From the NCBI RefSeq assembly GCF_030028105.1, contig NC_092388.1, positions 10,812,508-10,876,507 of the forward strand: a stretch of 64,000 nucleotides of DNA, given 5' to 3'. Positions 2,871 to 63,294 of this stretch are shown piece after piece (position 1 is the first letter of the stretch; each line of letters begins with the position of its first letter). Below the pieces are notes generated by a model. The model ran no database searches. It had not been told where the DNA came from and saw only the letters and a list, made by a program, of their open reading frames with translations. The DNA is from Mobula birostris (lineage: Eukaryota). Made by a program: the position numbers and the translations under genes.

Positions 2871-4409
2871 CTAAAGACACAGCAGTTCCAACTTTTTGGG
2901 AGCAACAGGTACAGTTACTATGACCATATCAATTAATACATGAACATCAATATCGCTCTTGTGACTGTCTTTTGTTTTTGGATCCACAGCTCTGGAAAGT
3001 GTGTCGGCTGTGTACATGAATTTTCCAGGTGTGTATGACACATTCAACTCATATCTTTGCAGTTTGATCATCATTCGCTGAATTCGCAAAGGACAGTTGC
3101 TTAAAGGTTTGTTAAACAATGCAATCAATGGCTTATGATCGGTTTCAACATCAATAGATTGCCCTGACACAAAATGATGAAACCTCTCACAAGTAAACAT
3201 AATGCTGAGCAATTCTTTTTCAATTTGGGCATACCTTGTTTCTGGATCAGATAATGAACGAGGTGTATATGCCACTGGTAACCATTCCTGATCATGTTTT
3301 TGGAGTAGTACTGCCCCTAAACCTGCTTGAGATGCATCACATGAAATTTTGATGGGTCTCTCAGCATCATAAAACTTCAACACATGTTCTTTTGTGAGTA
3401 CTTTCTTGAGATTTTGCCATGCCTTCTCCTGTTCATGATTCCAGTTCCATTCATTTCTCTTTTCTATTAGCTGCCTCAATGGAGCCAGCTGTTCCGAGAG
3501 ATTGGGTATACATTTTCCCATATAGTTAACCATTCCCATAAAGCTCTGAATATCCTTTTTACATTGTGGTTTTGGCATGTTCTCAATAGCAGAAACCTTC
3601 AATGGATCAGGACGCACACCCTCTTTGCTGATGGTATCACCCACAAAGGTAAGTTCAGTCACTCCTAGCTGACATTTGTCTTTATTTAATTTCAGGTTAG
3701 CCTTGCGTGTTGCCTCAAAGACTTGTCTGAGCCTGGCATCATGCTCTTGTTTAGTCAATCCCCAAATAATAATATCATCCATGGATGTATGCTCGCCCTC
3801 AATGTGCTCATATTTTTTTTAATTTAAAAAATGTGCTGATATAACATGTGAATGGTTTTATGGTACACTTCAGAATCTGATGCAATTCAAAAAGGGAGCC
3901 TAAGAAAGCAGTATCTGGCAAAAGGAGTGTTAAAGGTACACAGTTTTGATCTCGGTTCATCTAATTTGAGTTGCCAGAATCCGGAGGATGCATCTAATTT
4001 ACTAAAATACTTTGCATTAGCAAACTGTGACATAATTTATTCATGAGTAGGCAATTTGAAATGCTCTCTTTTAATGGCCCAATTCAAGTCTCTTGGATCT
4101 AAGCATATCCTCAGTTTTCCATTTTTCTTATCAACAATGACAAGCTAATTGACCAATTCAGTTGGTTCATCAATTTTTTTTTATGACTCCTAGCCTTTCC
4201 ATTCTGTCTAGCTCTGTTTTCAGTTGATGACATAATGCACAAGGTACTTTTCTGCATGGATGTATTCTAGGTTTCACTGTATTGCCAATTTTAGTCGAGT
4301 GCTCTCCTGGAAGACAACCAAGCCCTTTAAACAAGTCTTCATACTCTTTCATCAAGTCACTGTATTCTGACTCTGTGTCGCTATCCAGGACTAAAATTCT
4401 TTTCACCAA
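2871..4409 (-). pseudogene. pol: Gypsy pol remnant (reverse transcriptase + RNase H), frameshifted
   Basis: MDDIIIWG (YxDD region), LKLNKDKC, CDASQAGLGAVLLQ, YAQIEKELL, ETDHKPL, ADTLSR. Upstream broken frames give RT N-terminal motifs (RKVP..LKTELDRMERLGVI). Confidence 0.9.
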
Positions 4410-4419
4410 ATTAAGTCTT

Positions 4420-5560
4420 TCACAGGCAGATAAACCCAGAATTGACTACATTTTTTGGCACGACCACAAATGAAAGCATATGCACAATATTTTTGTGTGA
4501 TACCTTTGCTACGCATGTTCCTTTAACTGGAATGTCTGCACCTGAATACCCAGTCACTTTTATATTTGTTTGATGTAACTTCCCTCTTGGCTTTAAAGCA
4601 TTAAACTCAGTTTCTGCAAGAATGTTCACTTGCGCTCCAGTATCAAGTTGAAATAGAATATTGTTTTGATTCACTTGCAACGGAATAGTCCAGTCATTCT
4701 TACTTCGTTTATTTTCACAAAGTATATCTATATAAAATTCCTCACATTCATCTTCAAGCACAGCATTTACTTGTTTCATTTTATTTTCCTTCTTTCTACT
4801 TTTACAACAGCGTGAAAAATGATTAACCTTACCGCAGCCATCCGAAACTTTGTCATAAGTGGGACACTGATTTGGACGATGTTTCCGCGCACAGCGATCA
4901 CATGACTTTTTTCTTTCCAATGCCGTCTTGCTCTCTGTCAGTTTCGTGGACGAATTATTATATTCCTTGATGTATTCGTGCTTTTTTACAGCATTTACAT
5001 TGCAGTTTTTGACAAAAAGCTCTTCAGCCTGCAACGTCACAGTCTCAGAAGCTTTGCAAAGTGCCAAAATTTTTTTCAAAATTTAAATTTTGCTCTCTTA
5101 GCAGCCTTTCTCTCAGAACATTATCTCGAATGCCACAAACAAGTCTATCTTTAATGAGAGAGTCCATGAGCAATCCAAACTCGCATGTTCTACTACACTT
5201 TCTTAACTCAGTTACATACTGATCAATTGTTTCAGCGGCTCTCTGTGCACATGCAAAGAATTTATATCACTCATACGTTAAATTACGCTTAGGTATACAA
5301 AATACTTCAAATCTGTCCATTATTGACTTTAAATTGAAATTATCTCCATCTTCAAAGACAAAATTATTATATACCTCTACTGAGTCATTCCTGATTACAT
5401 GGAGCAAAAGTGCAGCTTCAGTTTTTTCCAATTTTTCTTCATAATCGATTGCTGATAAGTACAGTTCAAACTGTTGCTTGAATATCCTCCAATTCTCAGC
5501 TACACTGCCAGTCAGCTGAAGTTTTGGTGGGGGTTGTAAACCTTCCATTTTACCATTCAC
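4420..5560 (-). pseudogene. gag: Gypsy gag + aspartic protease remnant
   Basis: ENWRIFKQQFELYL gag N-terminus, zinc-knuckle-like CDRCARKHRPNQC and GCGKVNHFSRCC, protease FQLDTGAQVN. Interrupted by stops and frameshifts. Confidence 0.85.
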
Positions 5561-11226: not shown

Positions 11227-11451
11227 AATAGAAACCACAAAATGAGATTCTGGTCAGCAAAAATTATTTTCTGTCGAGAGTCCAAGATTCCACTGGCCAA
11301 CAGATGGGGGAGATAGATTTTATTGTCAATATCTGTCCCTACTGAGAGCTGGTCTTGTGATAATGAGAAAAGGCCTGCATTGACCTATGCTACAAGCTCC
11401 TATAATGACATGTAGTACCTTTCTGTGTAGCTGACTGCGAGGCAAGCTTTT

Positions 11452-17100: not shown

Positions 17101-17892
17101 TAAATGTAAATTATTTACTTCAATTTTAATTAGTATTTATACATCTGAATGTATGGTTTTCAAAAGCTGTTAATTCACGATTGTTTATTGTCATTCTTCA
17201 GTACACAACTGTACAGGAGAACAAAGCAATTGTTACTCCGGATGTGATACAGGATAAAATGCACAATAAATATAAATATAAAATCAATCCTGTGAAACAC
17301 AATGTACTAGTAACTGGCTGTATATTCATAAGATTACATACATAGACTGATTGCATATTCATAAGTGACACTAGGTGGAGGAGTATCTGAACAGGAAATG
17401 ATCAATGACGATTTGTCTCTTGGCAAGAGGAACTCTTATAGGTAGCAGCAGGACATATGAAAACACAATGGGACAATGTGTCAGTGGGTATGAAGTGTGG
17501 AGTGTAAGTGTAAAGCGACAGTGAATGGGGGGATGAAGGGGGTGGTGAGGGACTGTGGAGAGGAGTGTGTCAGTGTCAGTGTGAGGTGTGGAGTGTCAGT
17601 GTAAAGTGACAGTGAATGGGGCTAATTTGTTTGGGGCAGCAGTCTTACAGCTATCAGTGACAGCTTTTACAGGACCTGCATGTCAGGAGCTGTTGGAGGT
17701 CATCTGGAGTTGGGATATCCTCAGAGAGCCACCTGAACCAAGCAGCTGGACACCAGGGTGCAGAGACCCATCCACATACACCTGGTCTAGTTAAGTGCAG
17801 GCATGGCAGGGATCATGGGTACCTATTTGGGCAGCATGGGCAGGCTTACTCAGGACTTCTCCTGAGCGAAGTTTAGCTTTATAAAGAGTAAA

Positions 17893-18205: not shown

Positions 18206-18744
18206 AACCCCGAATGCATCCAATTCCTAACACATGTCATCTTCCAGTAGCAGTTCCTTCATGGCCTCCCTCCTTTCAGAATCTGCAATTTCATCTGGTT
18301 CTACAACATTCCAAACCCCAGCTTTGGTCAATCCTAGCTTCCCATTTGTTGATCCTTTGGAAATTGCACCTGCACCCCACCAGGCCTCAACTCTGAACTC
18401 CCCAACCCTCAAAGACACTGAGCCTCCCAACTCATTTAAAAAATATCCTAAAAATCTACTACTTTTAATCATCACCTTCATTGCTTCTGTGTCAAAGTGC
18501 AATGTAAATTCATTGTCAATGTACGTATGTGTATATGTACTTTGACCATATGCGACTCTGAGATTCATTTTCTTACAGGCATTTGCAGTAGAGCAAAAAA
18601 AAAGAATAGAGACAGTGGAAAGCTATGCAGAAAAGACATTTATTTTTCTGCTAATATTCCTACCAGGCAGCTGAGGGTCTTTAATAATATAATTGTGATA
18701 GGGAAATGCAAGTGGTTGTATCAGGCACAGGTTTCTGATTAGGA

Positions 18745-19846: not shown

Positions 19847-22336
19847 CAATTATTCACACGCTGCGTGTGAAATCTCACGTTGCACGCTATTCCCAAACAA
19901 TATACCCGTGAGAACACAAAAAGGCAGAAACCAAATTTGACCATAACAAATATTTCTAATGATATCCTCCGTTGTAAATTATTTCTAACGCAGTGGATCC
20001 TACAACAAAGACGGTGCTTATAACTAAAGTGGAGTACGACCTCTGAACGTGCTGCGGCAGAACTGGAAACGAGGCAAAGGAGATCAAGCCGTTGCCTGCC
20101 TGCTGTTTCAAAAGACTCCAGAAGCTCCCCGCCTCTCTCCCTCTCTCTCGTTCTTTCTCACTATATTTGTGCTTCACGCTTCAGAGAGTTGCGCGGCTGC
20201 TGTGGTGATCACTCCCTGTCGTCGTGCTCCCCCTCCTGTTCATCCCTAGTACTGCCCAGCAACGGCGGCGAAGCCCAACCGGCGGAAGCTACGTGTCCTA
20301 TATTGCACATTTCCCTCGCACAAACTTAACTTCTTCGGAGCCGTTTCTTTTTCCTGTCACCAAAAAAAAATCATTCATTGTTTCTCTTCGGGTTCTTGCA
20401 CGTCATTATGCTCAAAACAAACAACTTAAATTTGTTGGCCGTTTTCCTTAAATTTTAGATTGTGATTCCCTGCGGAGAAATGCTAAGGTAATGGTAGTAT
20501 ACACAATGACAGCTCCCCCCCCCAAAAAAAAAGCAAGAAATGAAAGGAGCAATTCGCATAAGGTTAAGCAAACGAACTCAAATTTAAAACTAAAAGCACG
20601 GAAATCCGAAGTTTAGTTAAGAACTATAGTGGGGGAGTTTAGGACCAGAGGGCACAGCCTCAGAATAGAGGGACGTTTAGTTAAGTTACGTAGTTTAGAG
20701 GTCGTTTAAGATTAACTCACAAGAAAGATCGATTTCAATGTCAGGACACGGCGAGCAATAAAAAGGTGGGTTATCTAATTAACAAGTATTTTCAAAAACT
20801 ATTTATTCAACCCTGTTTTTAAGTAACATAGTTTTGTCTTTTATTTTCATGTTTGCACTTTATCCTATTGTAAAGCAATTTGAACTACATCGCTTGCATG
20901 AAAAGTGCTCTATAACTTATTTATTATTATTATTTTAGGCAGAAATGCTGCAGAAAAACTACCTTTAAGTACATATACGCCGTTCCTACTAAGCGGCTAT
21001 TATCTAAATTCAAAAAGTTGTCTACAATGTGGAACAGGCCAGAATGTGTTTTTTTAAAAATATAAATTAAACTGGTTCACATCTCCGTCTAAACTAATTA
21101 AAGTTCGCGGACTTACGCAAGTTCGCCGGCCTCGTAAAATCTACAGGTTGGATAGTTGCATTATAAACATGAGGGATTTAAGATCAAACCGTAATTTACC
21201 TTTCAGAAGATATTATACTTGCCACGAGGGGCGGGGGCGGAATCTTGCGCTCTTCGCGGCGGCTTTTTCGTAAGTGTCTTAAGTCTGTAGTTAATCACAT
21301 GTCAGTGGGTTCTCCTGAGTTACAGCTGAAGAGTCTTAAAATTCTTAACACTACCATTTCAAACCAGTTAAAATCGATATAAGCGTAACTTCATCACGAT
21401 TTTCATAAGACAAAGAAAGTTAATCGGATTTGTAATCGTTCTGTTACCCTTTCTTGTTAATTGTAAGTGTAGTTTAAAGCACTCTATTCACAATGATCAA
21501 AACTAAAGCTGAAATAGTCCGGTTTCTTTTGCAGTACACGATGGCATTAATCTAAATAATGACTCGTGGCTTTTAGTGCATTTTTATTGTCCGTAATGGT
21601 AACCGAGGAGATTTTTGGCTTCCTGGAGAGGAAGGCTGTGTGGCAGCAACCATGCGTTTGAAATACAAAAACTATTCGTTTAAAGAATTTACCAGCATTT
21701 TCTGAGGTGGTGTAATTAACAAATTCTGAAAAAATGTACATTGTATACAGAATACCAAAATAAATACTTGACAGTAACAATTTTATACGAATGTGTTCCA
21801 ATTAATAAGCACAAACGTATTGGTTTCATTAGACGAGAGCAGTCACGTACTATTAGAGTTGTCGGAGTGCCGCTGATAAGACGCACTGAGGATGCTGATA
21901 GGGTCAATGTGTTCGTTACTCCAATCTGCCCGCAACACACAGAGGCAATAAAACACCTTGCGAAGTGGTCGAATGCTTTTAAACCAATCAGCAGCTCGGT
22001 GGTTTTCCCGCACCCACATTTCGATCGATATGTTTTCGTGTTATTTCTCCCCCACTCATTCTTTGGATCTAACGAAGACAACGGGAGCAATGTTTTTATG
22101 CACAGAATGATCAGATGCGCTCGGCAACAAATCACAACAAGATGTTCTCCAGCCGACGAAACGAAGCTGGTCTTTGATTTATTTTACTGTGAAGCTGAGT
22201 TTTATTCTCCGACCACCATACCGAACCCCAGCACATGCGATTATATGTTGATAGACCACACCCTCTTCACCTGTTTCTACAGTATTTCCTATCAAGAGTT
22301 CATTGAAACAGAACAAAAATATAGGTATTAAATAAT

Positions 22337-22545
22337 CACACAAAATGCTGGAGGAACTCAGCAGGTCAGGTAGCACCTTTGGAGGGGAATAAACATTGGA
22401 CGGCTCGAGTCGAGACCCTTCATTAGGTCTCGTACCGAACCATCGACTCTATTCCTGTCCACAGATGCTGCCTGACCTGTTGAGTTCCTCCAGCTTTCTG
22501 TGTGTGTTACTCTGGGTTTCCAGCATCCGCAAAGTCTCTTGTGTT
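22337..22545. mobile_element. Inverted (palindromic) pair of Penelope-associated terminal repeats
   Basis: Arms 22337-22383 and 22458-22504 are reverse complements, with a GAGACCCTTCATTAGG centre. Confidence 0.65.
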
Positions 22546-23447
22546 TATTAAGGTACAAAACTTTAAATTTATTGCAATATAGAGCGCTTATAACTTGTTT
22601 CAGAATGTCAAAAACTTGAAATGCAGTAATGTGGAAAATAAATTATTTGTAAGAACGTATTAAAAGTGAAATACTTATTCAAGGATTTCTAGATTCGTTT
22701 AATTTTCCTGCTCGTCAGGAAGACTTATTTAACCGAGATTAATAAGAGAAAGACTGAAGTCTAATTCAACAGTAACATTAGACGAGGCGCTGCTTCAGAC
22801 GATAATTTAAACAAAATAAATGTGAAAGGCAAATTATATTTTCGGTCGAAAAAATGCTAGCTATGCGTCACCATATAAACATGTTACTGTTGGGCGCTGG
22901 TGCAAAAGGACGGGCAATGCCAACAAAAAAGAATATGGGGAGGGAAAGGGTTATCTACTTTAGCTAGTTTAACCTAGTCCAGGACACCAAGGACACTCCA
23001 TTTGTTCGGCACTACGCACGTTATTGCTGAGAGACTAAATATTTGTTCAAAAGTCTAATTTAGGTGCCTTTGAAGAAAGCCTAGGTGCACTGCCAGACGT
23101 AATGACCAATAAATCTCAACCCTCCCATGCCCCCTGCTAAATTAGCTGGAGTAAGGCCATTTGTCCAACAATATTTCATGTACTCAGTTTCAGCGCCGAT
23201 GGCCCTCACCACGTTTATATAAAATGCGCGAACCTACCCTAAAATAAATGAGCTTCTGGGTTTCAATACAAATAATATTTCTGAAGTGAGATCACATTTT
23301 GCAACTGGCAAAGTGAATGTAGTTACTGCTTCGGTGTTTTTGATCTGAATAGACTGAAATTTACTGGAAGCCTTTTTATGGTTTTACCTTTCTGTTTCAA
23401 CAGTTACAATAACAAATGACCCACATTTATACGCGTAGGATACGTCC

Positions 23448-23700
23448 TGTTTTAAGAGTGATTACTTTGTGTAGCTCCGTAGAAGGTTTAATTCTGCATT
23501 CATAAGTACTGTTCCACGAAGAACAGGCAAACACAATATCAAGGTCACCCAACAACAGCGATGCTTGGAGACGAAAACTCCCACATCAGAGAAGAATGGC
23601 ACTATTGACGCTCTTGTTACCTCTGCGGACATCTAGCGGCAAAATTGAGTCACTGCAAAGCGATTACAGGAATGATTTGGTTTGGAAATCTGGGTTATAG
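23448..23700 (+). pseudogene. HoxA14: Candidate HoxA14 pseudogene, 3' part of exon 1 remnant
   Basis: Colinear degenerate Hox13/14-type N-terminal motifs, compared with HoxA13 in this window: CFKSDYF~YFGSSYY (23448), HKYCST~DKYMDT (23501), YQGH~YQGY (23537), WHY-DAL~RHETL (23597), WKSGL*|GT~WKSSLPG|GT (23683-23702). Contains stops and frameshifts. Confidence 0.5.
23625..23657 (-). promoter_or_regulatory. CTCF binding site with upstream (ZF9-11) module
   Basis: Minus strand TGCAGTGAC-TCAATTTT-GCCGCTAGATGTCCGC: core like CCASYAGRKGGC plus TGCAG at plausible canonical spacing. Confidence 0.65.
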
Positions 23701-23886
23701 GTGTATGATTTTTACTTCTTTTCGGACCGCCAGTGATTACATTTATTTACCGTTTCATGTTTTTCAGTGACTTCTTCCGATCGAGATCCTGGGTCAAGCG
23801 TTGGTGAAGTTCCCTGCTCCTCTCGGCAACAGGGCGGTTATGAGTCGCAGTCATTGCGGAGAACCCCTTGACTGATCTCACAAACA

Positions 23887-24280
23887 GAATCAGAATCAGG
23901 TTTAATATCACTCGATTGTGCCGTGAAATGTGTTGTTTTGCTGTGGCAGCACATTGCAATACATGATAAAAATATAAATTACAATAACTTATATATACAG
24001 TAATGTATGTGTATTTGTTTGCATTATTTTCCCCTTTCTCCAATCTGTGTCTGTATATGTATATATATGTGTTAACTTAAATAAGTAGCGGAGAAAGAGA
24101 GAAAATAGACTGAGGTAGTGACAATTGATTAATTGTCCATTCAGAAACGTTGATTTTCGCCTCTTTGTTGGTAGTAATGAAAAGAGGGCATATCCTGGGC
24201 GAAAGGGGTTCTTAATGGTGGATGTCGCTTTTTTGAGCCATCGCCTTTTGAAGATATCCTGGATGCTGGTGAAGCATCAA
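23887..24280 (-). mobile_element. Rex1/Babar LINE 3' end, in the putative psi-HoxA14 intron 1
   Basis: Reverse tail AGAATCAGAATCAGGTTTAATATCACT and reverse 'GDIHH..PGYALF' coding end. Confidence 0.7.
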
Positions 24281-25170: not shown

Positions 25171-25469
25171 TTGTTTCGATGTGTTTATACAAATTGCCGA
25201 AGCCCGGCAGCGATAACATAGTTTGTGTGAATATGTCTCGCTACAACACAAGTTTCATAATCAACGACGAACTGCTTTGAAAGAAGTTTTCGTTTCGGAA
25301 TATATTTTGTTTACGATTGAATTGCACCTTAAGTGATAGCCCGATGGTGAATATATACTACATGGTGGTTCTCTGAGAATTAATGGCTTATTAAGGCGGA
25401 ACATACGCTTCAATTAAACTACATTCACTGTATCAAAATAAAAGGAGATGAGGAAATATCTGAAGAACA

Positions 25470-25560
25470 GACACCAAAATGCTGAAGGAACTCAACAGGT
25501 CAAGCAGCACTTATGGAAGGGAGTAAACAGTCGACATTTCGGGTCGAGACCCTTCACCAG
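25470..25560 (-). mobile_element. Penelope-associated terminal repeat with a degenerate hammerhead core
   Basis: Minus strand CTGGTGAAGGGTCTCGACCCGAAATGTC at 25533-25560. Confidence 0.6.
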
Positions 25561-32848: not shown

Positions 32849-33497
32849 ATGACAACGCCACTGATACTTCATCCTCGCTGGATCGACACGGTGATGTTCG
32901 TCTACGACAATAATTTGGATGAAATTAATAAAAACATGGATGGATTTTCAGGAGGGAACTTCACAGCAAATCAATGCAGGAATCTGATGGCCCATCCAGC
33001 ATCCTTAGCCCCCAGTTCTGCCTACTCGTCGACTGAAGTACCAGCCTCTGGCATTGTTGAACCTGTCAAACAGTGTAGTCCTTGTCCTGCAGCTCAAACT
33101 TCCTCCAGTGCGTCTCTTCCTTATGGATACTTTGGGAGCAGTTACTATCCCTGCCGAATGAGCCACCACAGCAACATTAAGTCCTGCGCGCAGCCCTCCA
33201 GCTTGTCTGGTTATCCTGCTGACAAATACATGGACACGTCCGCCGGCGAGGAATTCACCAGCCGAGCTAAAGAGTTTGCTTTCTACCAAGGTTACGCGGG
33301 ACCATACCAACCAATGCCCAGCTATCTGGACGTACCTGTGGTCCCCACTATCAGCGCTCCGGGAGAACCGCGACACGAAACGTTATTGCCCATGGAGAGC
33401 TACCAGCCCTGGGCAATCACCAACGGGTGGAACGGGCAAGTCTGCTGTGCGAAAGAGCAACCTCAAGCCACCCACCTCTGGAAGTCGAGTCTGCCAG
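32849..33497 (+). CDS. HOXA13: Homeobox protein Hox-A13, exon 1
   Basis: [60 protein letters not shown]; phase-1 donor G|GTAAAT at 33498. Confidence 0.97.
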
Positions 33498-33896
33498 GTA
33501 AATATTGATAGAACTTAACACGCTGCCCATAATCGAACCCCGTCCAATGAAGGGGGAAAACGATCTGTCTGACGTGCAAATACGTACGGGTAACGGAATA
33601 ACATAGAAATAGACCATAACTAAGAAATGATATTCGCAGTGCCATCAGCACTTGTATTTTAATGTGGTGCCTGAATACGTCTTTGCATGTTTTTAATCAT
33701 TTCTTCGGCCTTTGCACAGATTACAATTATATCTCCGGGCGTGCCATTTAATTTATTAAATGCAGTCCCAGTAGCATCTCCGTGCAGTGATGTTGAACTT
33801 GACTCCAGCGACACGATCTGCTTTGAAACTTTGGTTTATTTGACGTCGACAGCTAAGCTGCCAGAGGTGGTAAAGATGTGCATTTCTCTTCCACAG

Positions 33897-34141
33897 ACGT
33901 CGTATCGCATCCTTCGGACCCCAGCTCTTTCCGACGTGGAAGAAAGAAGAGGGTGCCTTACACCAAGGTGCAATTGAAAGAACTTGAACGGGAATATGCT
34001 ACCAATAAATTCATCACCAAGGACAAGCGAAGGAGGATATCGGCATCAACAAACCTCTCGGAAAGACAAGTCACGATTTGGTTTCAAAACAGACGAGTTA
34101 AGGAAAAAAAAGTTCTCAGCAAACTGAAAAGTAACAGCTAG
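33897..34141 (+). CDS. HOXA13: Homeobox protein Hox-A13, exon 2 (297 aa spliced)
   Basis: Acceptor TTCCACAG|; [72 protein letters not shown]; stop TAG. Confidence 0.97.
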
Positions 34142-35668
34142 TGCGACAATTCCAAAAATTCTTGGACATATTTTGAAAATTTTAAAACAATTCAGCCTGA
34201 AGAAAAAGAAACCATCTCAGCTCACTTTCTTGATGGTAGATTTCTTTTCTGTTTTTCGGCCTGAATATTACTTTTCTCAAAACATCCCACAAAGTTCAAG
34301 AGAGACAGTGTACAAAAATATCATGTTAAAATAATTTAATATTCGCCAGAAATAAATCAAACCTCTTAATCAGGAATCGAGAGGGTTGCTGTTTTCAAAT
34401 GTGGGAAACGTTGTATGCATATAGACTGAAACACTCAGAAAGAATAAGCGTAAAACCTTGTTCCACACAGTTCCTTCGCAAAATGCCATCAGAGCACCTA
34501 AAGAAAACTTGCTGAAAAGGTTTAGTTATTAAAAAAAAAGCTACTAGAGTGCATGTTATTTTTATCCTCAGGTAAGCCATGGGATATATCGTGAAAATGT
34601 ATAATAAAAGTATGTTTAAGCACTACGTTTTCTTTGGAAGGGATGCGCTGTCTCTTAAGATATTAATGTATAGGTAGATGGAAGAATATATTCTAAATAG
34701 GAATGCATATGGGAATGTGAATGCATACAATTCCAGCACTCTACGTTTCTAATAATGTACATACCTAAGAGCACCGTTGGCTTTCGTAATAATAAGTGTA
34801 GAGCGTCATTTTCCACAGAGCTGAAAGACAAATTTTGCAAACTTGGAAATGAACTAAATATGAAGCTTTTTAAAAATAAGTCTGCTAGTTATAATACACA
34901 TCTCACGTCGCATTAATCTCTATGCAGGCTTAAGGCGCACAGCTTTCTTCCTAAAGATGACAACGTTCGCGTGCAATTGTATTTAAAAAAAAATTGTTGG
35001 ATTGTTATATCTGCATGCTCCCCTCTTGCTTGGTATATATAAACCAATTATAGTTGCAACGTTAAATCACGAATGATAATCATGAAATTAAGATATGTTT
35101 TACATTACTATTATGCAGCTTTTAATCTGTATAGCCTATTGTCTTTTAATCATCTACTGAATTACTTGCATTAAAACAAATTATTTCACGAATAAAAGGT
35201 CTTCATAAACTACAGCGTTGCATAGTTTTTGTTAAGAAACTTCTAAGACAAAAAAAAAGTCGAAGTGGCTAATTAGATTTCTTCCTGTTGCGAAGCAAGT
35301 TACTCAAAATGCGTGGAAACCATGCGTGCATTCTGAGAACTAACCGACGAATTTACTATTCGGTAAATATATCCAACCATTCTATTTTTAAATGGAAGAA
35401 TGTCACCGCCAGATAAAGATTCAAGATTTTGATGGAAGCTGTAGACTGGACCTCTAAATTTGTATCGATATATACCAAAAGTTTGGGAACATTAAGTAAC
35501 TCTTTCCATATTCTGGGTAAAAATATATGCTCCCTTTGCTTTGTACGTGGAGGCAGGGCGATGGGGGTGGGGGAGGCGGCTTAAACCTTGACCTTGACGA
35601 AAACAGATAGTCTTTGACCTTGACGATTAACAGCTCATGAATAGTCATGAGGTGCATATGTAGAGCAA

Positions 35669-35685
35669 GTGCGCCATCTACTGTT
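35669..35685 (-). promoter_or_regulatory. CTCF motif between HoxA13 and HoxA11
   Basis: Minus strand AACAGTAGATGGCGCAC, one mismatch to CCASYAGRKGGCRS. Confidence 0.55.
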
Positions 35686-37396
35686 ACATCTGCAGACATT
35701 CATTTATATGGGTTTTGAAAGCATGAACAACCGAACGTGACTGTATCAATTATAAAGGTGCTGAGAGTGAACTGGGAGCATCCAGTGTAGGTCAGTAACT
35801 CTAACGAATGGTTATGCATTGTGAACATAATAGAAAGTTCCGGGTAAATTATTTAGAATGTTTGATTTTTCAATGGCTATACATGAACTATATTTCCTCC
35901 GCCAAAGTTTGCTATTTTACCAATATCCAAGGGGAGAGAATTTAGAATCCATATCAATATTGGGGTATGGTTGTATGTTTTGTGAGTTAACTTTCACTTG
36001 CAATTACATTTCAACCTCTATAGCTAAAGAAATCGTAAACAGACTGATCGAGTAAAATTTCTCACTGTTATATTTATAAAGTGCATTGAAGGGTTTATAG
36101 TGATCGAATTATCTATGATCAGTTGTCTATAACATTGTTGTTCCGCCTTTATCCGTATCTAACTGCTCTAGGCAGGATAGCTTTTTTATATTATATACAT
36201 AATATCCGGTCATGTACTTGTGGAATTTCGCTTTTCATCTTGCGAAATTAAAGGTATTGCTTAGAAGCTCCATGTAAGGAATTTTACGCGACGTTTTAGG
36301 AATTTCAAAATATACGGTCTATATACAATTCAAGTGGAAAGCACGGGAAATTGCATGTGATGTTGCGTAATCCGTCTTTCGCCGAGGGTGGTGAACATGG
36401 AAAACTATAACTCGATCTTCATTGAAAATGTTAACTACCGCAACTTTTCATTTTAACACACAGAATTGCAGATAAATTCCACAATCATACAGTGAGTCCG
36501 CTATTTTATCGTGGATATTATAGAAAATGGTTCCGTGAAATTATTAATTGTGAGGTAAGCTTACTTCCTTAAGTAACCTGTCTACTTTGTTGCAATAACA
36601 TCAAATTAATATTGGACGCCTAATTATCAACCTTTAATTTATTCTCTCTAGTGCTTTTTTTTCCTAATGCATCCGAGACAACAATCGAGGTGGTGGTGGT
36701 GGGGGGTGGGGGGAGGTTTACAGTTCGCAGCATGAAAGCTGATTTGTCAAAATGTTGTGGGATTATAAAATTCTACATTGATCTCATGACGTAGCCGAAC
36801 CAATCACAGCATGGCTTTTGCAAAACCCAAACGGGCATTTGTAGGGAAATGCCTGGGTAGAGCCACCCACGTTGTGGCTCATGAGGGTGGTTTAATTATT
36901 ACTGTTCTAGATACATCTTGTGTAAAAATACTGCGAAATATCTGCTTAAGACAACAAAATATTAATATTTATTATATTTTATTAATAATAAGTAACCGCT
37001 GGTGTTGTCAAACAGATAATGTTTATACGAATAACTGAGAACTATTTCCAAAGAAATTAATGCCATGCAGATTTTTATTTCGGCTGTTATATGTTTTGTT
37101 GGCCTTAAGTAACAAATAGTACCGGCGGAAGCGCTGCAAAACCCTTAAGCAATGTCACTCGCTTTCGTCGAATCATCATTTCTTGTTATTTATGTATTGC
37201 CTTATGAAAAAATAGGAAACTTAACCACGTAGTTATCTGCGTGATATCTACAGAGAGCAGAAAGCATAATAATTTAGAATTGGCACTTCTGAATTCATTT
37301 AGCCTTAGGCTGTTGAAAGAGTTCGGTGCCAATAATGAAAGTTCAACTGTAGAGATTTACTTAGAATAAATGAACATATATTTCTAATATATATAC

Positions 37397-43664: not shown

Positions 43665-45195
43665 ATATATGTATATGTATTAATTAAATAATGCAAAGGT
43701 ATATTATAGTCTATTCTAGAAATAGGCGGTTGACCAACGTTGAATGCAACAAAAAAAAAAGACTACAGTATTACGAAGCCTTGTTACAAATTTTGGGCTT
43801 GGATAATGTTCTTTATATTGCAATGTTTTCGGAACCTAGTATTTACTCTTTAATAAGATGGACTTATTTTTTGTAGCTAGTGATTTATTCGGTTGTGCAG
43901 GCCAGAGAAACACGTAAAATCGGCATTTCGAATATTCTGGAGACTTTCCGCAGCATCGCCGTGTGCTTATCGAAACGAAACAATTCGGAAAAAAAATGAT
44001 TAATTTGCAATTACCATAGTTGCTCGTAAAGATAGTTTTTGAGCGCGGAACTTAATTTAAAGTTCGGTCTTTCTGGCAAATGTTTATGGCAAAGGTCCTT
44101 ATCCCCCGGAAACCTGTTTGTTTTGGCACTGCGCAATTGTTTTTGGAGCAGCAATAAGCTAATATGTGACAAATTCTTAAAGCAAAGTTTAACTTCAACT
44201 CTTATCTATGGTTCCATTATTTTCAAAAGCATAAAGGATTCATCGCAAGCTTTCAAACTCTTAGTGTGCATTTAAAACCAAACAGTTGGACGGTGGAAAT
44301 AAATATGTAAATAAATGTTCTTTTATTGGATATTCTCTGATTAATATTTCCCTCGCCAAACTAAAACCATTGTTTATTTAGTCTGAACCATATTAACTAT
44401 AACACTGCTCCTTACTCATGTGACTTTGTTGAGAGTTTATAGAAATATGGAACAATGTGCCCACGGCCAATGTCAAAGTGGTTTTCAATCCGCATTGTTC
44501 ACGTTTGTTTCGTCCGAAACTTTTTTTCTCTCTCTGCTACAAGTGTTTTTGTCTTGAACAACATAGTCACAAGAATCCTGCCTGAAATGTGAACGTTGTT
44601 TGAATCTTAGACTGCGTTAGATAATATTTCTCGAAATCCAGCTAAATAGATGCCAGATTCATATAATTGTTCTGGGAGGGCGCGGGTTTTGTAGATGGTG
44701 TTGAACATGACCATGCCCTGTTTCTCTTCAACCAGAAGTACTATAACAATTTTAAGAGAGATGCTTGGCAGATTCGCGCGGAATCAATTCTTATGAGAAA
44801 AAATAACCTAGAGTCGATTTGGATACACTTATGAAATTACAAACGAGCACACATCTTTTTCGAACTTGTCGCCAATAACTTAGCTTCCCCACGTCTTTGT
44901 GGAGGTCTACGACTGACTGTGTGCTCCAATGCCTTATTTTTGTGGAGGGGAGGGTGTAGGTGGGGAGTGAGGATATTTGGATTTGAAAATAGAAGAGATA
45001 TTGGAAGATAAATCATTATTTATTCATTTTAATTTATGTTCTTATAACATTTTCTGGAATATTCTTACAGAGTTTTGGTTATTATCCATAAATTCGCAAA
45101 TGGTTGGTTGGAATAAATATGTTGCATATCTTCTTTAATTAAAGTGACAAGAGAAAAGATAAGGGGATTTCTCCAATGACATGTCGAATGGTCGC

Positions 45196-45439
45196 NNNNN
45201 NNNNNNNNNNNNNNNNNNNNNNNNNNNNNNNNNNNNNNNNNNNNNNNNNNNNNNNNNNNNNNNNNNNNNNNNNNNNNNNNNNNNNNNNNNNNNNNNNNNN
45301 NNNNNNNNNNNNNNNNNNNNNNNNNNNNNNNNNNNNNNNNNNNNNNNNNNNNNNNNNNNNNNNNNNNNNNNNNNNNNNNNNNNNNNNNNNNNNNNNNNNN
45401 NNNNNNNNNNNNNNNNNNNNNNNNNNNNNNNNNNNNNNN
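45196..45439. other. Assembly gap (244 N)
   Basis: Run of n characters. Confidence 1.
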
Positions 45440-45669
45440 TTAAAAATTAATCAGCGCTTGATATATATTTTAGCCGCGGTAATGGTTATAAGTTTTTTTT
45501 CCACGTCTATTCTTGGTTCAAGTCAGCTAGTTGGAGAGACATGAAGTAAACGTGCCAAACAGGACTCTGGTGTGAAGCCTGAACACCTTCACAGCATTAT
45601 TCGAGCCTTCCTTTTCCCCTCTTAGAAATGTGCAGAGCTCAGTTGTAAAGAGCTTTGCGCTCCTGGTGC

Positions 45670-48150: not shown

Positions 48151-51100
48151 CTAAACTCATATCCGTTGTCTATATGATTCATACAGAGAGTGTCTCTAGA
48201 GATTAACTTTGAGATGTCAAGGTGAACGTTTGAACATAGTTAAGCAGAACTGGTTTTGTAATTGAAGAAAGAAAGCAGCTTCTATACATGAACGGACACG
48301 TGTACTGAAGCCCTAGGAGAAAGAACTGACTCTTGTGGACCTGCTGCAATATAAGAATATTTTTAAAAATAAGGTGATAAGATGCGCATGCTTTAGATTA
48401 GGAGCATTTCAGTGGCTCTCAATGCCAGCCACAACAATTGGATATATATTTGTTATCTACGGTTACCAAAAGTAGCAAGCAGTCTCGTTCTTTTGCATCT
48501 CAGCCTTCGGGAGGAGAGAACTTAGCGCAGCAGCAATTCTGCAAATAATGCCAGTTTATCGCTGCTTAGCGTACTGAATACTTGTCTATAGGAAAGGCAG
48601 ATGATAACTTCGGATCTCTACGATAGAATCACCTTTATTTCCATAAATAACGATCAGTACTCCCCATCCCCCACCCCCATAATTACCCCAAATGAGAACA
48701 TGCATGCAAGTATCCAATTTGAAATTCATAGCAAAAGGAAAGACCGTTTCTAATGAGTGTGGAATTTATATTAGTCATTAAAATAAGCAAGTGTGGTTAA
48801 ATTCAGTTTTACATGTATAAATCTGTATATTTTAGCTGTTGGCCTCGATATATTAACACCTTACCATTTAATACATAGCTTGGGATAATAAGATATTTGA
48901 AAACCGGCTATTTTATGCTCGCTGAAGCAATTTGTGTGTGTTTATTTGTACTTGATACATCGTGCTTCGTAATTTTCAAATGCAGTTTTTACTTTCAAAG
49001 GGAAAAGATGCTACCCGCGAAGGCATACTTGAGCACAAAGTATTGTAAATATATCGCTCTTTTGGTACAGATGAATGTGTATAGGAATTGGGTTTAAAGG
49101 TTGCTGCTCACGCATCTATTCTTGTCACGGATTCCTCCAAAGGATGACCAGTCTGCAGTATTTACAGTATTGAAGCCATCTTTATCCGTGTGAACCAAAG
49201 ACAGAAAAGTATTTTCATTGAGTGTTTTATTGCACAATGGTAACATTTCCTGTACATTCAACATATAAGCTTTTTATAGATCGATATACTTATAGGCCGC
49301 ATTGTCCATAAATCGCCCACACGTAACCAGACAACACATGCCAGCCCTGAAAGTCCCTTCGGTTTATTTTATCAATTTAATTTAAACGTTTCGATGTGGC
49401 TTTTGTTATTAACATCATCAAAATAGCTTATTTTCTCGTTCATTCTGGTAAAATGACAGATGACAGCGGTCGATTGCTTGCCGTTATGTTCTTTTTTGGT
49501 AATTCTATTTTTTTTTATTTTGCAAAACACTGAAATATAACAAAAGGCTGGAATATGCATCACAGAGGTGGTGTTTTCTACATTAAGAAATTTGATTTTG
49601 AAAATAAACAACAATTCCTTCAAGAGCAAAGTCCTCATCAAAAGCTGTTTAATTAAATGTGATGTCGACGTTTGCTAACATTTGTATATAATTTATATTT
49701 ATCAATTTGACTAAAATGGGATAAATTTGCATGTCCACGTTCAGAGAGCGCGCAATTGGACTTAATGTAGAAAAATTAATTAAGGTGCTTTTTCTTACGG
49801 CAGACTTTGTTGGGTATTCAAGACAGAACTAAAACACCTGCGAAGTATTGTACTATTGTTCGTTTCATGTACGTAATAAACAACCATTAAAGCTGGATAA
49901 CATTCCACATCTGTCTACATACATTGGTACGTTTCTTTAGTTTGTATTCTGGAAAATAAGACATTCAGATCAAATTTCGGACAATGATAATTTCAAATAT
50001 TCAAGTCATATTAAAAGCCTTATGTTCGCATTAACAAAATTAGACGAAAAATCAAAAAAAATTGCGTTAGTTTAAACTTTATTCCATACACACGAAAAAA
50101 AACCCGAAGCTGTCATGAGGGAAATTTTGTGGGTCTTTGCTCTCGGTTTGGCAAATATTGGACTGCGTTTGTTAAGGTTCATAGGGTGTAAGTTAGAAGA
50201 AATTGTAATACATTATAGTTGTGTTACAATATCTTTAATGCTGATTTTTTTCCGCTTTCCTGCTTGTTTCCTGGCTTTGAACTTCTGTTACGTCGTGGAC
50301 GTCACCTCTAACCTTGGGGGGGAAAGGGATAATCAGCTCTGAATCTTCCACTCTCTGCTCAGACTCCCGCCGGCGGTGACGGGAGGCCGAAACAAATTAT
50401 AAGCGACTGATCAACAGTATTGGCAGAGATACTATCGAGACATGTCCTCACGTCATGAAAGTTTAATGTTGCGTGTGAGGCTGCTTTAATAATGAATGAT
50501 ACTAACAGTGATTAAAGATATGAGTTAGTTTTTATATCTAGAGAAGAGGGAGTTGAGACAAGTATGGTAGCATATGAAGGGGCCGTGGCATTAAAGGCAA
50601 ATGACAAGGGATCGCCTCTGTTGCTTGGTTACTAACAGCGGGATAAGTCGTAAAGTCTTTTTTAATTGCAGCTCTCTGTTTCTTAATATTGGGGCAATAG
50701 ATATGAAATTCCAAATGCGGGGAATATAAACAAAATCTTCGAGTTTAATTGTTCTCCCTCTCTAGATATCGTTTTGCGTTCGCTCGGTGTTTCTGCACAA
50801 CTACACGAGAGAGCTATGACCATGAATTCTTCCAGCTGGACACACACAGTCCACATGGTGGCGCCATTTAGATCAATGTCAAAGCCGCTTTGGCGACCGC
50901 AAAAAAATATAAGGAAAAATACTTTGTCGATGTTCCAAAGTACAAGTTTAATGGGAGGTATGTGAATCTTCTGAAGCCAAATTGAAAACCGCACCTCTCT
51001 ATTTGACAAATTAAATCTAATCCAAATTGAATATTCAATTAAGCTCAGAAATAACCACTTTTTTTTGCTAACAGAAGAAAGGTGATCGGGTTCATGCAGA

Positions 51101-63211: not shown

Positions 63212-63294
63212 AACTGACCTGTGATTTAGGTAGTTTCATGTTGTTGGGGTAAAGTCTAACTCTACAACACGAAACTGCCTGAATTACTGCAGTT
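63212..63294 (+). ncRNA. MIR196: mir-196 precursor (HoxA copy, positional orthologue of mir-196b)
   Basis: Mature TAGGTAGTTTCATGTTGTTGGG at 63227-63248, complementary 3' arm CTACAACACGAAACTGCCTG, basal stem AACTG/CAGTT, located downstream of HoxA10. Confidence 0.96.

What the first reader, a model, noticed from the sequence alone, without database searches (positions are those of the whole stretch)
23597..23660. CTCF site embedded in the dead HoxA14 coding exon
Seen: the best CTCF motif in the window (core plus upstream TGCAG module, minus strand, 23625-23657) overlaps the segment that translates as WHY-DALVTSADI*RQN*. The in-frame TAG at 23634-23636 lies inside the CTCF core. Known: CTCF sites delimit the 5' side of the mammalian HoxA cluster. 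Inference: part of the HoxA14 exon persisted, or was co-opted, as the 5' cluster boundary. That would explain why the pseudogene is still readable and suggests that the tetrapod boundary site might be a HoxA14 fossil.
Basis: inference. Interest (0 to 1): 0.75.

Follow-up and report, generated by a model that had tools for sequence, protein, structure and literature searches.

The report
Outward CTCF site upstream of HoxA13
A strong two-part binding motif for the chromatin-looping protein CTCF lies 9 kb upstream of HoxA13 in what is likely a ray genome, one of two such outward-facing motifs that likely anchor loops to far upstream enhancers as in other jawed vertebrates; whether it sits in a fossil HoxA14 exon remains untested.

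Summary
The motif is real: minus-strand core 23624-23642, 6-bp spacer and upstream TGCAG module 23649-23657. Only 3 of 200 simulated windows reach its two-part score (recalled approximate matrices). By core alone it ranks 8th of 13. The HoxA14 claim is not shown. WHY and DALVTSADI are in different frames. No homeobox remnant was found, and Pfam and homologue searches were blank. No Hox14 sequence could be obtained, and a Hox13 N-terminal profile cannot detect even intact HoxA11 or HoxA10 exon 1, so exon-1 homology is untested rather than refuted. The TAG in the core is not evidence: about 19% of cores carry it, and TGG scores as well. Outward sites near Hox13/Evx are a known gnathostome feature, and the TAD boundary lies inside the cluster. 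Best reading: an ordinary outward loop anchor. The fossil-exon idea stays open at about 15-30%.

The parts
23624..23642 (-). CTCF core motif, pointing away from the cluster (towards lower coordinates)
   Evidence: core 11.8 bits, recalled matrix
23643..23648 (-). 6-bp spacer between core and upstream module; holds the + strand TGA at 23646-23648
   Evidence: sequence
23649..23657 (-). CTCF upstream module TGCAGTGAC at canonical spacing
   Evidence: 11.0 bits, highest of the 11 sites listed
23634..23636 (+). TAG in the DALVTSADI frame; it is the CTA of the core on the motif strand
   Evidence: P(CTA) about 0.19 under the matrix; TGG would score 12.9 against 11.8
23597..23605 (+). WHY codons; outside the motif, in a different frame from DALV and followed by a stop
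23475..23633 (+). 53-codon stop-free stretch ending in DALVTSADI; claimed HoxA14 remnant, homology unshown
   Evidence: (32 of 798 stretches are as long)
23675..23694 (+). IWFGNLG: best match upstream of HoxA13 to back-translated IWFQNQR (4 mismatches of 20); not clearly above chance
23106..23223 (+). CCAAT box (23106-23110) and TATA-like box (23216-23223) about 400 bp upstream of the motif; possible relic promoter, no similarity to Hox promoters
20224..20256 (-). Second two-part CTCF motif, same outward orientation, at the edge of the CpG-retaining domain
   Evidence: (21.2 bits; 3 of 200 simulations)
35669..35687 (-). Core-only CTCF motif between HoxA13 and HoxA11, outward
50848..50866 (+). 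Highest-scoring core-only CTCF motif, between HoxA11 and HoxA10, opposite orientation
32849..34147 (+). HoxA13 (two exons); start codon 9.2 kb downstream of the motif

Best explanation
This is a two-part CTCF motif 9 kb upstream of HoxA13 that likely binds CTCF and, with its twin at 20.2 kb, likely acts as an outward-facing loop anchor of the kind known near Hox13/Evx in jawed vertebrates; its overlap with a peptide-like reading is likely incidental, or at least not shown to be HoxA14. Shown: the motif, its orientation, its twin, and its position inside the CpG-retaining, repeat-poor Hox domain. From established knowledge (recalled): zinc fingers 3-7 read the core and fingers 9-11 the upstream module, and bound CTCF halts cohesin arriving from the side the motif points to. 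Inferred: the three minus-strand sites (20.2, 23.6, 35.7 kb) would stop loops coming from the Evx1/Hibadh side and so bring posterior HoxA genes to the upstream enhancer domain, while the plus-strand site at 50.8 kb faces the other way, giving the divergent arrangement of a boundary inside the cluster.
For: Two-part score reached in 3 of 200 simulated windows, for each of two same-strand sites 3.4 kb apart. CpG observed/expected is mostly 0.1-0.5 left of 19 kb and mostly 0.6-1.2 from 19.5 kb on; the core keeps CpGs. No copy of 22550-23870 elsewhere in the window. Kadota 2017 (PMC5504073, section 12): outward motifs near Evx or Hox13 are common to the gnathostome clusters analysed, and two-part binding is ancestral to vertebrates. 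Skate HoxA is bipartite, with CTCF motifs facing into TADs (PMC10115646 passages). Mouse 5' HoxA genes, Evx1 and enhancers share a domain (PMC3873244 passages). No homeobox remnant at 19.5-32.7 kb: best score 18.2 against 15.6 on the opposite strand, while a held-out Hox12 homeobox part was found in 60 of 60 trials at 10% decay and 45 of 60 at 20%.
Against: Occupancy and conservation are untested here. The matrices are recalled approximations, and the core alone is middling (8th of 13). Kadota 2017 reports that motif scans predicted few sites in the elephant shark clusters and did not predict human Hox sites accurately. The negative on HoxA14 is weak: power fell to 10 of 60 at 30% decay, and exon 1 cannot be seen across paralogue groups. 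Weak hints of a gene relic are nearby: a CCAAT plus TATA arrangement 400 bp upstream, a 97th-percentile codon score for 23514-23633, and IWFxN at 23675, seen twice in 32.8 kb where 0.01-0.09 were expected. HoxA14 pseudogenes are reported in cartilaginous fishes.
Confidence: 0.55

Rival explanations
1. The motif is a real CTCF site inside a remnant of HoxA14 coding exon 1. The site probably already worked while the gene was alive (dual-use exon), and selection on it preserves the remnant.
For: The position is right: between the domain edge and HoxA13. CCAAT and TATA boxes 400 bp upstream. Codon score in the 97th percentile and a 53-codon open stretch. A Trp codon in place of the TAG keeps the motif (12.9 against 11.8), so coding and binding are compatible. 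HoxA14 pseudogene in elephant shark (PMC3707753). Conserved pseudogenised Hoxa14 exon sequence in turtles and crocodilians and the gene itself in four caecilian genomes (PMC11600591).
Against: The peptide needs a frame change between WHY and DALV. No homologue (insensitive for so short a match) and no Pfam hit in 12 of 12 translations. The Hox13-like W..D-x6-D resemblance scores 11.4, matched or beaten in 11 of 82 bins. 32 of 798 stretches are as long. The codon score separates poorly even on true exons (two of six negative). Mulley 2009 did not accept Hoxa14 in skate or horn shark.
Confidence: 0.25
2. A HoxA14 remnant is here, but it is exon 3 (IWFGNLG at 23675), so the CTCF site lies at the end of intron 2, not in coding sequence.
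For: Best nucleotide match to IWFQNQR in 1-32800, 16 of 20; an AG (ttacag) lies 5 bases before it; Hox14 genes have three exons with a split homeobox.
Against: A match with at most 4 mismatches arises in 57% of 150 simulations. A second IWFxN occurs at 18293. The helix-3 profile ranks it 3rd (15.2 against 18.1 and 15.7). The codons after it are not basic, unlike those after WFQN in the window's three Hox genes. No exon-2 remnant was found upstream.
Confidence: 0.07
3. The motif is a chance or lineage-specific match, or one brought by an old transposon, and is not a conserved bound site.
For: Cores this good arise about twice per window by chance. Repeats flank the region (23878-23990, 22337-22547). 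A degenerate version of the site had 0 matches in the metagenome collection, though that collection holds little vertebrate DNA.
Against: Two-part match in only 3 of 200 simulations; same orientation as its twin and as expected from Kadota 2017; no in-window repeat over the site.
Confidence: 0.13

Closest known systems
Outward-facing CTCF sites near Hox13/Evx in gnathostome Hox clusters (Kadota 2017, PMC5504073)
   Same: Position 5' of Hox13, outward orientation, two-part core plus upstream motif.
   Different: Here predicted from sequence only, in a batoid; that study had ChIP data for lamprey, chicken and mammals, not chondrichthyans. Orthology to a specific mammalian site is untested.
Bipartite TAD organisation of HoxA (mouse PMC3873244; skate PMC10115646)
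   Same: Divergent motif arrangement inside the cluster (minus-strand sites at 20.2, 23.6, 35.7 kb; plus-strand at 50.8 kb) fits a boundary within the cluster.
   Different: The site would be an anchor facing the 5' domain, not the boundary that closes the cluster off from it.
Hox14 pseudogenes and remnants: elephant shark A14/B14 (PMC3707753), bowfin hoxd14 (PMC8423624), turtle and crocodilian Hoxa14 exon remnants (PMC11600591)
   Same: Expected location upstream of Hox13; persistence of dead Hox14 sequence is documented and unexplained.
   Different: Those were identified by alignment to intact Hox14 or by a preserved WFQNQR motif; neither is shown here. No passage I read ties them to CTCF.

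Membership tests
Two-part vertebrate CTCF site | Core motif match | tested here: met
   11.8 bits with a recalled approximate matrix; middling, 8th of 13
Two-part vertebrate CTCF site | Upstream TGCAG module at 5-6 bp spacing | tested here: met
   TGCAGTGAC with 6-bp spacer; 3 of 200 simulations; spacing rule recalled
Two-part vertebrate CTCF site | CTCF occupancy in vivo | not testable with these tools
   No ChIP run was listed, which is no evidence either way
Gnathostome outward Hox13/Evx CTCF sites | 5' of Hox13 and pointing away from the cluster | tested here: met
   Minus strand, 9.2 kb upstream of the HoxA13 start
Gnathostome outward Hox13/Evx CTCF sites | Sequence orthology to a bound site in another vertebrate | not testable with these tools
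   No orthologous DNA obtained
Hox14 pseudogene (HoxA14) | Location upstream of HoxA13 on the Hox strand | tested here: met
   not specific
Hox14 pseudogene (HoxA14) | WFQNQR helix-3 motif | tested here: inconclusive
   No exact motif; IWFGNLG at 23675 is near chance level
Hox14 pseudogene (HoxA14) | Homeobox remnant split by an intron (exon 2 part) | tested here: not met
   Nothing above background in 19.5-32.7 kb; power 45 of 60 at 20% decay, 10 of 60 at 30%
Hox14 pseudogene (HoxA14) | Exon-1 similarity to coelacanth/lungfish HoxA14 or shark HoxD14 | not testable with these tools
   No Hox14 sequence obtained; proxy profiles have no cross-group power

The most novel reading that the evidence does not exclude
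The CTCF site lies in HoxA14 exon 1 and served both protein and chromatin while the gene lived. It is why HoxA14 exon sequence survives as a readable fossil after independent gene losses in cartilaginous fishes, turtles and crocodilians, and a mammalian CTCF site between HOXA13 and EVX1 is the last trace of HoxA14.
Probability: 0.15. Interest if true: 0.7.

Novelty: new member of a known kind. Interest (0 to 1): 0.3.

Why it matters
As it stands, it adds two predicted outward CTCF anchors to the 5' side of a batoid HoxA cluster, a testable but expected feature. If the exon link held, it would explain why dead Hoxa14 exons stay conserved in several lineages (PMC11600591) and give a mammalian Hox loop anchor a coding-gene ancestry. 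One alignment to coelacanth or caecilian HoxA14 would settle it.

Tried and rejected
No own genome is held. Getting a Hox14 protein failed: the HoxA13 homeodomain search listed 120 of 718 hits, none named Hox14; the 50%-cluster search and all stored proteins (256 screened) held no vertebrate WFQNQR protein; the Atlas gave cluster names only; paper supplements had no readable Hox14 sequence. The claimed frame read through with X found 12 candidates and none at E<=10, only lengths 141-2000 searched. tblastn of 255 stored Hox-like proteins against 1-32700 gave one hit, E 0.011 at 20941. HMMs of homeodomain and Hox13 N-terminus, DNA alignment to the window's homeoboxes, and Pfam were all blank at the site. 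Similarity of 23000-23400 to Hox promoters ranked 50th-244th of 320, while the ray-teleost HoxA13 promoter control scored 55; rejected. For sequencing runs with ChIP in the library description none was listed (the 10-kb query was probably too long), so no reads were laid. The metagenome scans gave 0 motif matches and two short teleost HoxA13 contigs that do not reach the site. The 203-codon frame at 21720 as a Hox14 exon: no Pfam, Atlas or homologue support. By-eye resemblances (N*VTAK to Hox10 NWLTAK, 30 of 125 windows as good) were rejected as chance. Earlier scan findings: none in three look-ups. The sigma-70 scan is irrelevant to a vertebrate.

Full report
Context. The window holds the 5' end of a HoxA cluster on the + strand: HoxA13 (start 32849), HoxA11, HoxA10 and mir-196. 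The HoxA13 homeodomain is 100% identical to a protein named Mobula birostris Hox-A13-like, so the animal is probably a ray. No genome is held for the window. The finding lies 9.2 kb upstream of HoxA13.

The motif. On the minus strand the sequence reads TGCAGTGAC, a 6-base spacer, then TTGCCGCTAGATGTCCGCA (23657 down to 23624). With a recalled, approximate core matrix the core scores 11.8 bits, 8th of 13 sites above 9 bits; 8 sites reach that score against about 2.2 expected in 100 simulated windows. Adding an approximate upstream-module matrix makes it first at 21.8, reached in 3 of 200 simulations. An IUPAC pattern, written after I had seen the site, matches once and in 1 of 100 shuffles; the 5-bp-spacer version matches nowhere. 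A second site at 20224-20256 scores 21.2 (3 of 200) and has the same orientation. Core-only sites lie at 35669 (minus) and 50848 (plus). CpG retention rises from mostly 0.1-0.5 to mostly 0.6-1.2 at about 19.5 kb, and most in-window repeats of the stretch examined lie left of 20 kb or at 22.3-22.5, 23.9-24.3 and 25.5 kb. The sequence-visible edge of the Hox domain therefore lies beside the second site, not at the finding.

The peptide. WHY (23597-23605) is followed by TGA in its own frame. DALVTSADI begins one base later in another frame, which is open from 23475; 32 of 798 + strand stretches in 19.5-32.7 kb are that long. The TAG is the CTA of the core read backwards. Under the matrix about 19% of cores have it. 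TGG would score 12.9 and TAC 11.2, while CAG would fall to 7.8. So the stop neither shows that the site arose by killing a gene nor excludes a dual-use exon.

Is it HoxA14? Hox14 genes have three exons, a split homeobox and the WFQNQR motif (PMC3509897, PMC3707753, PMC8423624; passages). I could not obtain one: for proteins and 51, 60, 63, 64, 70, 79, 81 for supplements, where the relevant alignments are pictures or are not held; these may bear directly on the claim. Proxy tests: an HMM of the window's three homeodomains found nothing significant. A frameshift-tolerant profile of 78 posterior homeodomains gave 11.5 near the site against a regional best of 18.2 and 15.6 on the opposite strand. 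A held-out Hox12 segment was recovered in 60, 60, 45, 10 and 2 of 60 trials at 0, 10, 20, 30 and 40% decay. So a lightly decayed homeobox is excluded and a heavily decayed one is not. For exon 1, an 80-sequence Hox13 profile found nothing, but it also scores intact HoxA11 and HoxA10 exon 1 at background (15.1 and 14.6), so that negative says nothing about Hox14. Pfam gave no hit for 12 of 12 translations, and the read-through frame found no homologue.

Results that lean towards a relic, all weak: IWFGNLG at 23675 is the best match to IWFQNQR in 1-32800. At nucleotide level that is chance (57% of 150 simulations), but IWFxN was seen twice where 0.013 (simulation) to 0.09 (codon frequencies) were expected; the other copy lies at 18293, outside the Hox domain. 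If real, it would be exon 3 and would put the motif in an intron. A CCAAT box and a TATA-like box lie about 400 bp upstream; of 7 TATA-like matches in 19.5-32.8 kb, 2 have a CCAAT box upstream. The frame 23514-23633 is in the 97th percentile of a codon score that separates true exons poorly.

Literature. Kadota 2017 (PMC5504073; passages and section 12) lists outward motifs near Evx or Hox13 as a gnathostome commonality and warns that motif scans alone predicted Hox sites poorly. Skate HoxA has a bipartite TAD with inward-facing boundary motifs (PMC10115646, passages). In mouse, 5' HoxA genes, Evx1 and the enhancers lie in one TAD (PMC3873244, passages); human HOXA13 loops to the centromeric or telomeric partners described in PMC7657955 (passages). 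Mulley 2009 (PMC2746220; abstract, passage and first third of the text) did not accept Hoxa14 in skate or horn shark. A review reports A14 and B14 pseudogenes in elephant shark. PMC11600591 (passages) reports Hoxa14 in four caecilian genomes and pseudogenised exon remnants in turtles and crocodilians, so a tetrapod HoxA14 fossil is already in print; CTCF is not mentioned in its main text. PMC7875771, PMC3038165, PMC7269910, PMC3692103 and PMC7932699 were seen as passages only, PMC6307216 by supplement search only. Powers and Amemiya 2004, Ravi 2009 and Hara 2018 were not seen. On novelty: the search CTCF plus Hox14 listed 5 papers; I read passages of one, where the two are separate examples, and did not open the other four. 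Searches listed no title on a CTCF site in a Hox14 exon. Most subscription papers are not searched.

Mechanism. Shown: two strong outward two-part motifs at 20.2 and 23.6 kb in a CpG-retaining domain. Recalled: CTCF reads core and upstream module with separate finger groups and stops cohesin directionally. Inferred: both sites anchor loops towards the Evx1/Hibadh side, joining posterior HoxA genes to upstream enhancers, with the boundary proper inside the cluster. I put this ordinary reading at 0.55, a site within a HoxA14 exon-1 remnant at 0.25, an exon-3/intron variant at 0.07 and a chance or unbound motif at 0.13. The full claim, that a mammalian site is a HoxA14 fossil, needs both exon homology and orthology and stands at about 0.15.

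Verdict. The motif is confirmed as a likely new member of a known class; the pseudogene story is unverified and settled by one alignment that could not be run here. Interest 0.3.

Noticed in passing
window 20224-20256 (-): Second two-part CTCF motif, as strong as the finding, outward-facing, next to the step in CpG retention at about 19.5 kb; the better candidate for the edge of the Hox domain.
   Followed up: partly
window 21720-22331 (+): 203-codon stop-free frame in the CpG-rich zone (1 of 100 simulations had one this long); its start resembles the HoxA11 homeodomain weakly (score 46, 2 of 100 simulations, one of three homeodomains tried; similar scores occur elsewhere). No Pfam, Atlas or homologue hit. 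A repeat begins at 22337.
   Followed up: partly
window 23106-23223 (+): CCAAT box and TATA-like box without a known gene; no similarity to Hox promoters. A TTTTATGG element lies at 23375-23382.
   Followed up: partly
window 35669-35687 (-) and 50848-50866 (+): Divergent core CTCF motifs flanking HoxA11, fitting a boundary inside the cluster.
   Followed up: no
window 11294-11312, 17365-17383, 17747-17765 (+): Plus-strand core-only CTCF-like matches in the repeat-rich zone; may be chance or repeat-borne.
   Followed up: no
window 2871-5082 (-): LTR-retrotransposon-like remnant with aspartyl protease, reverse transcriptase and RNase H matches.
   Followed up: partly
window 22337-22547 and 25466-25556: Short repeat, present as an inverted pair at 22337-22504, inserted inside the otherwise repeat-poor Hox domain.
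   Followed up: no
window 63218-63290 (+): mir-196 precursor downstream of HoxA10, as expected.
   Followed up: yes
window about 45190-45440: Assembly gap (244 N in the window) upstream of HoxA11.
   Followed up: no
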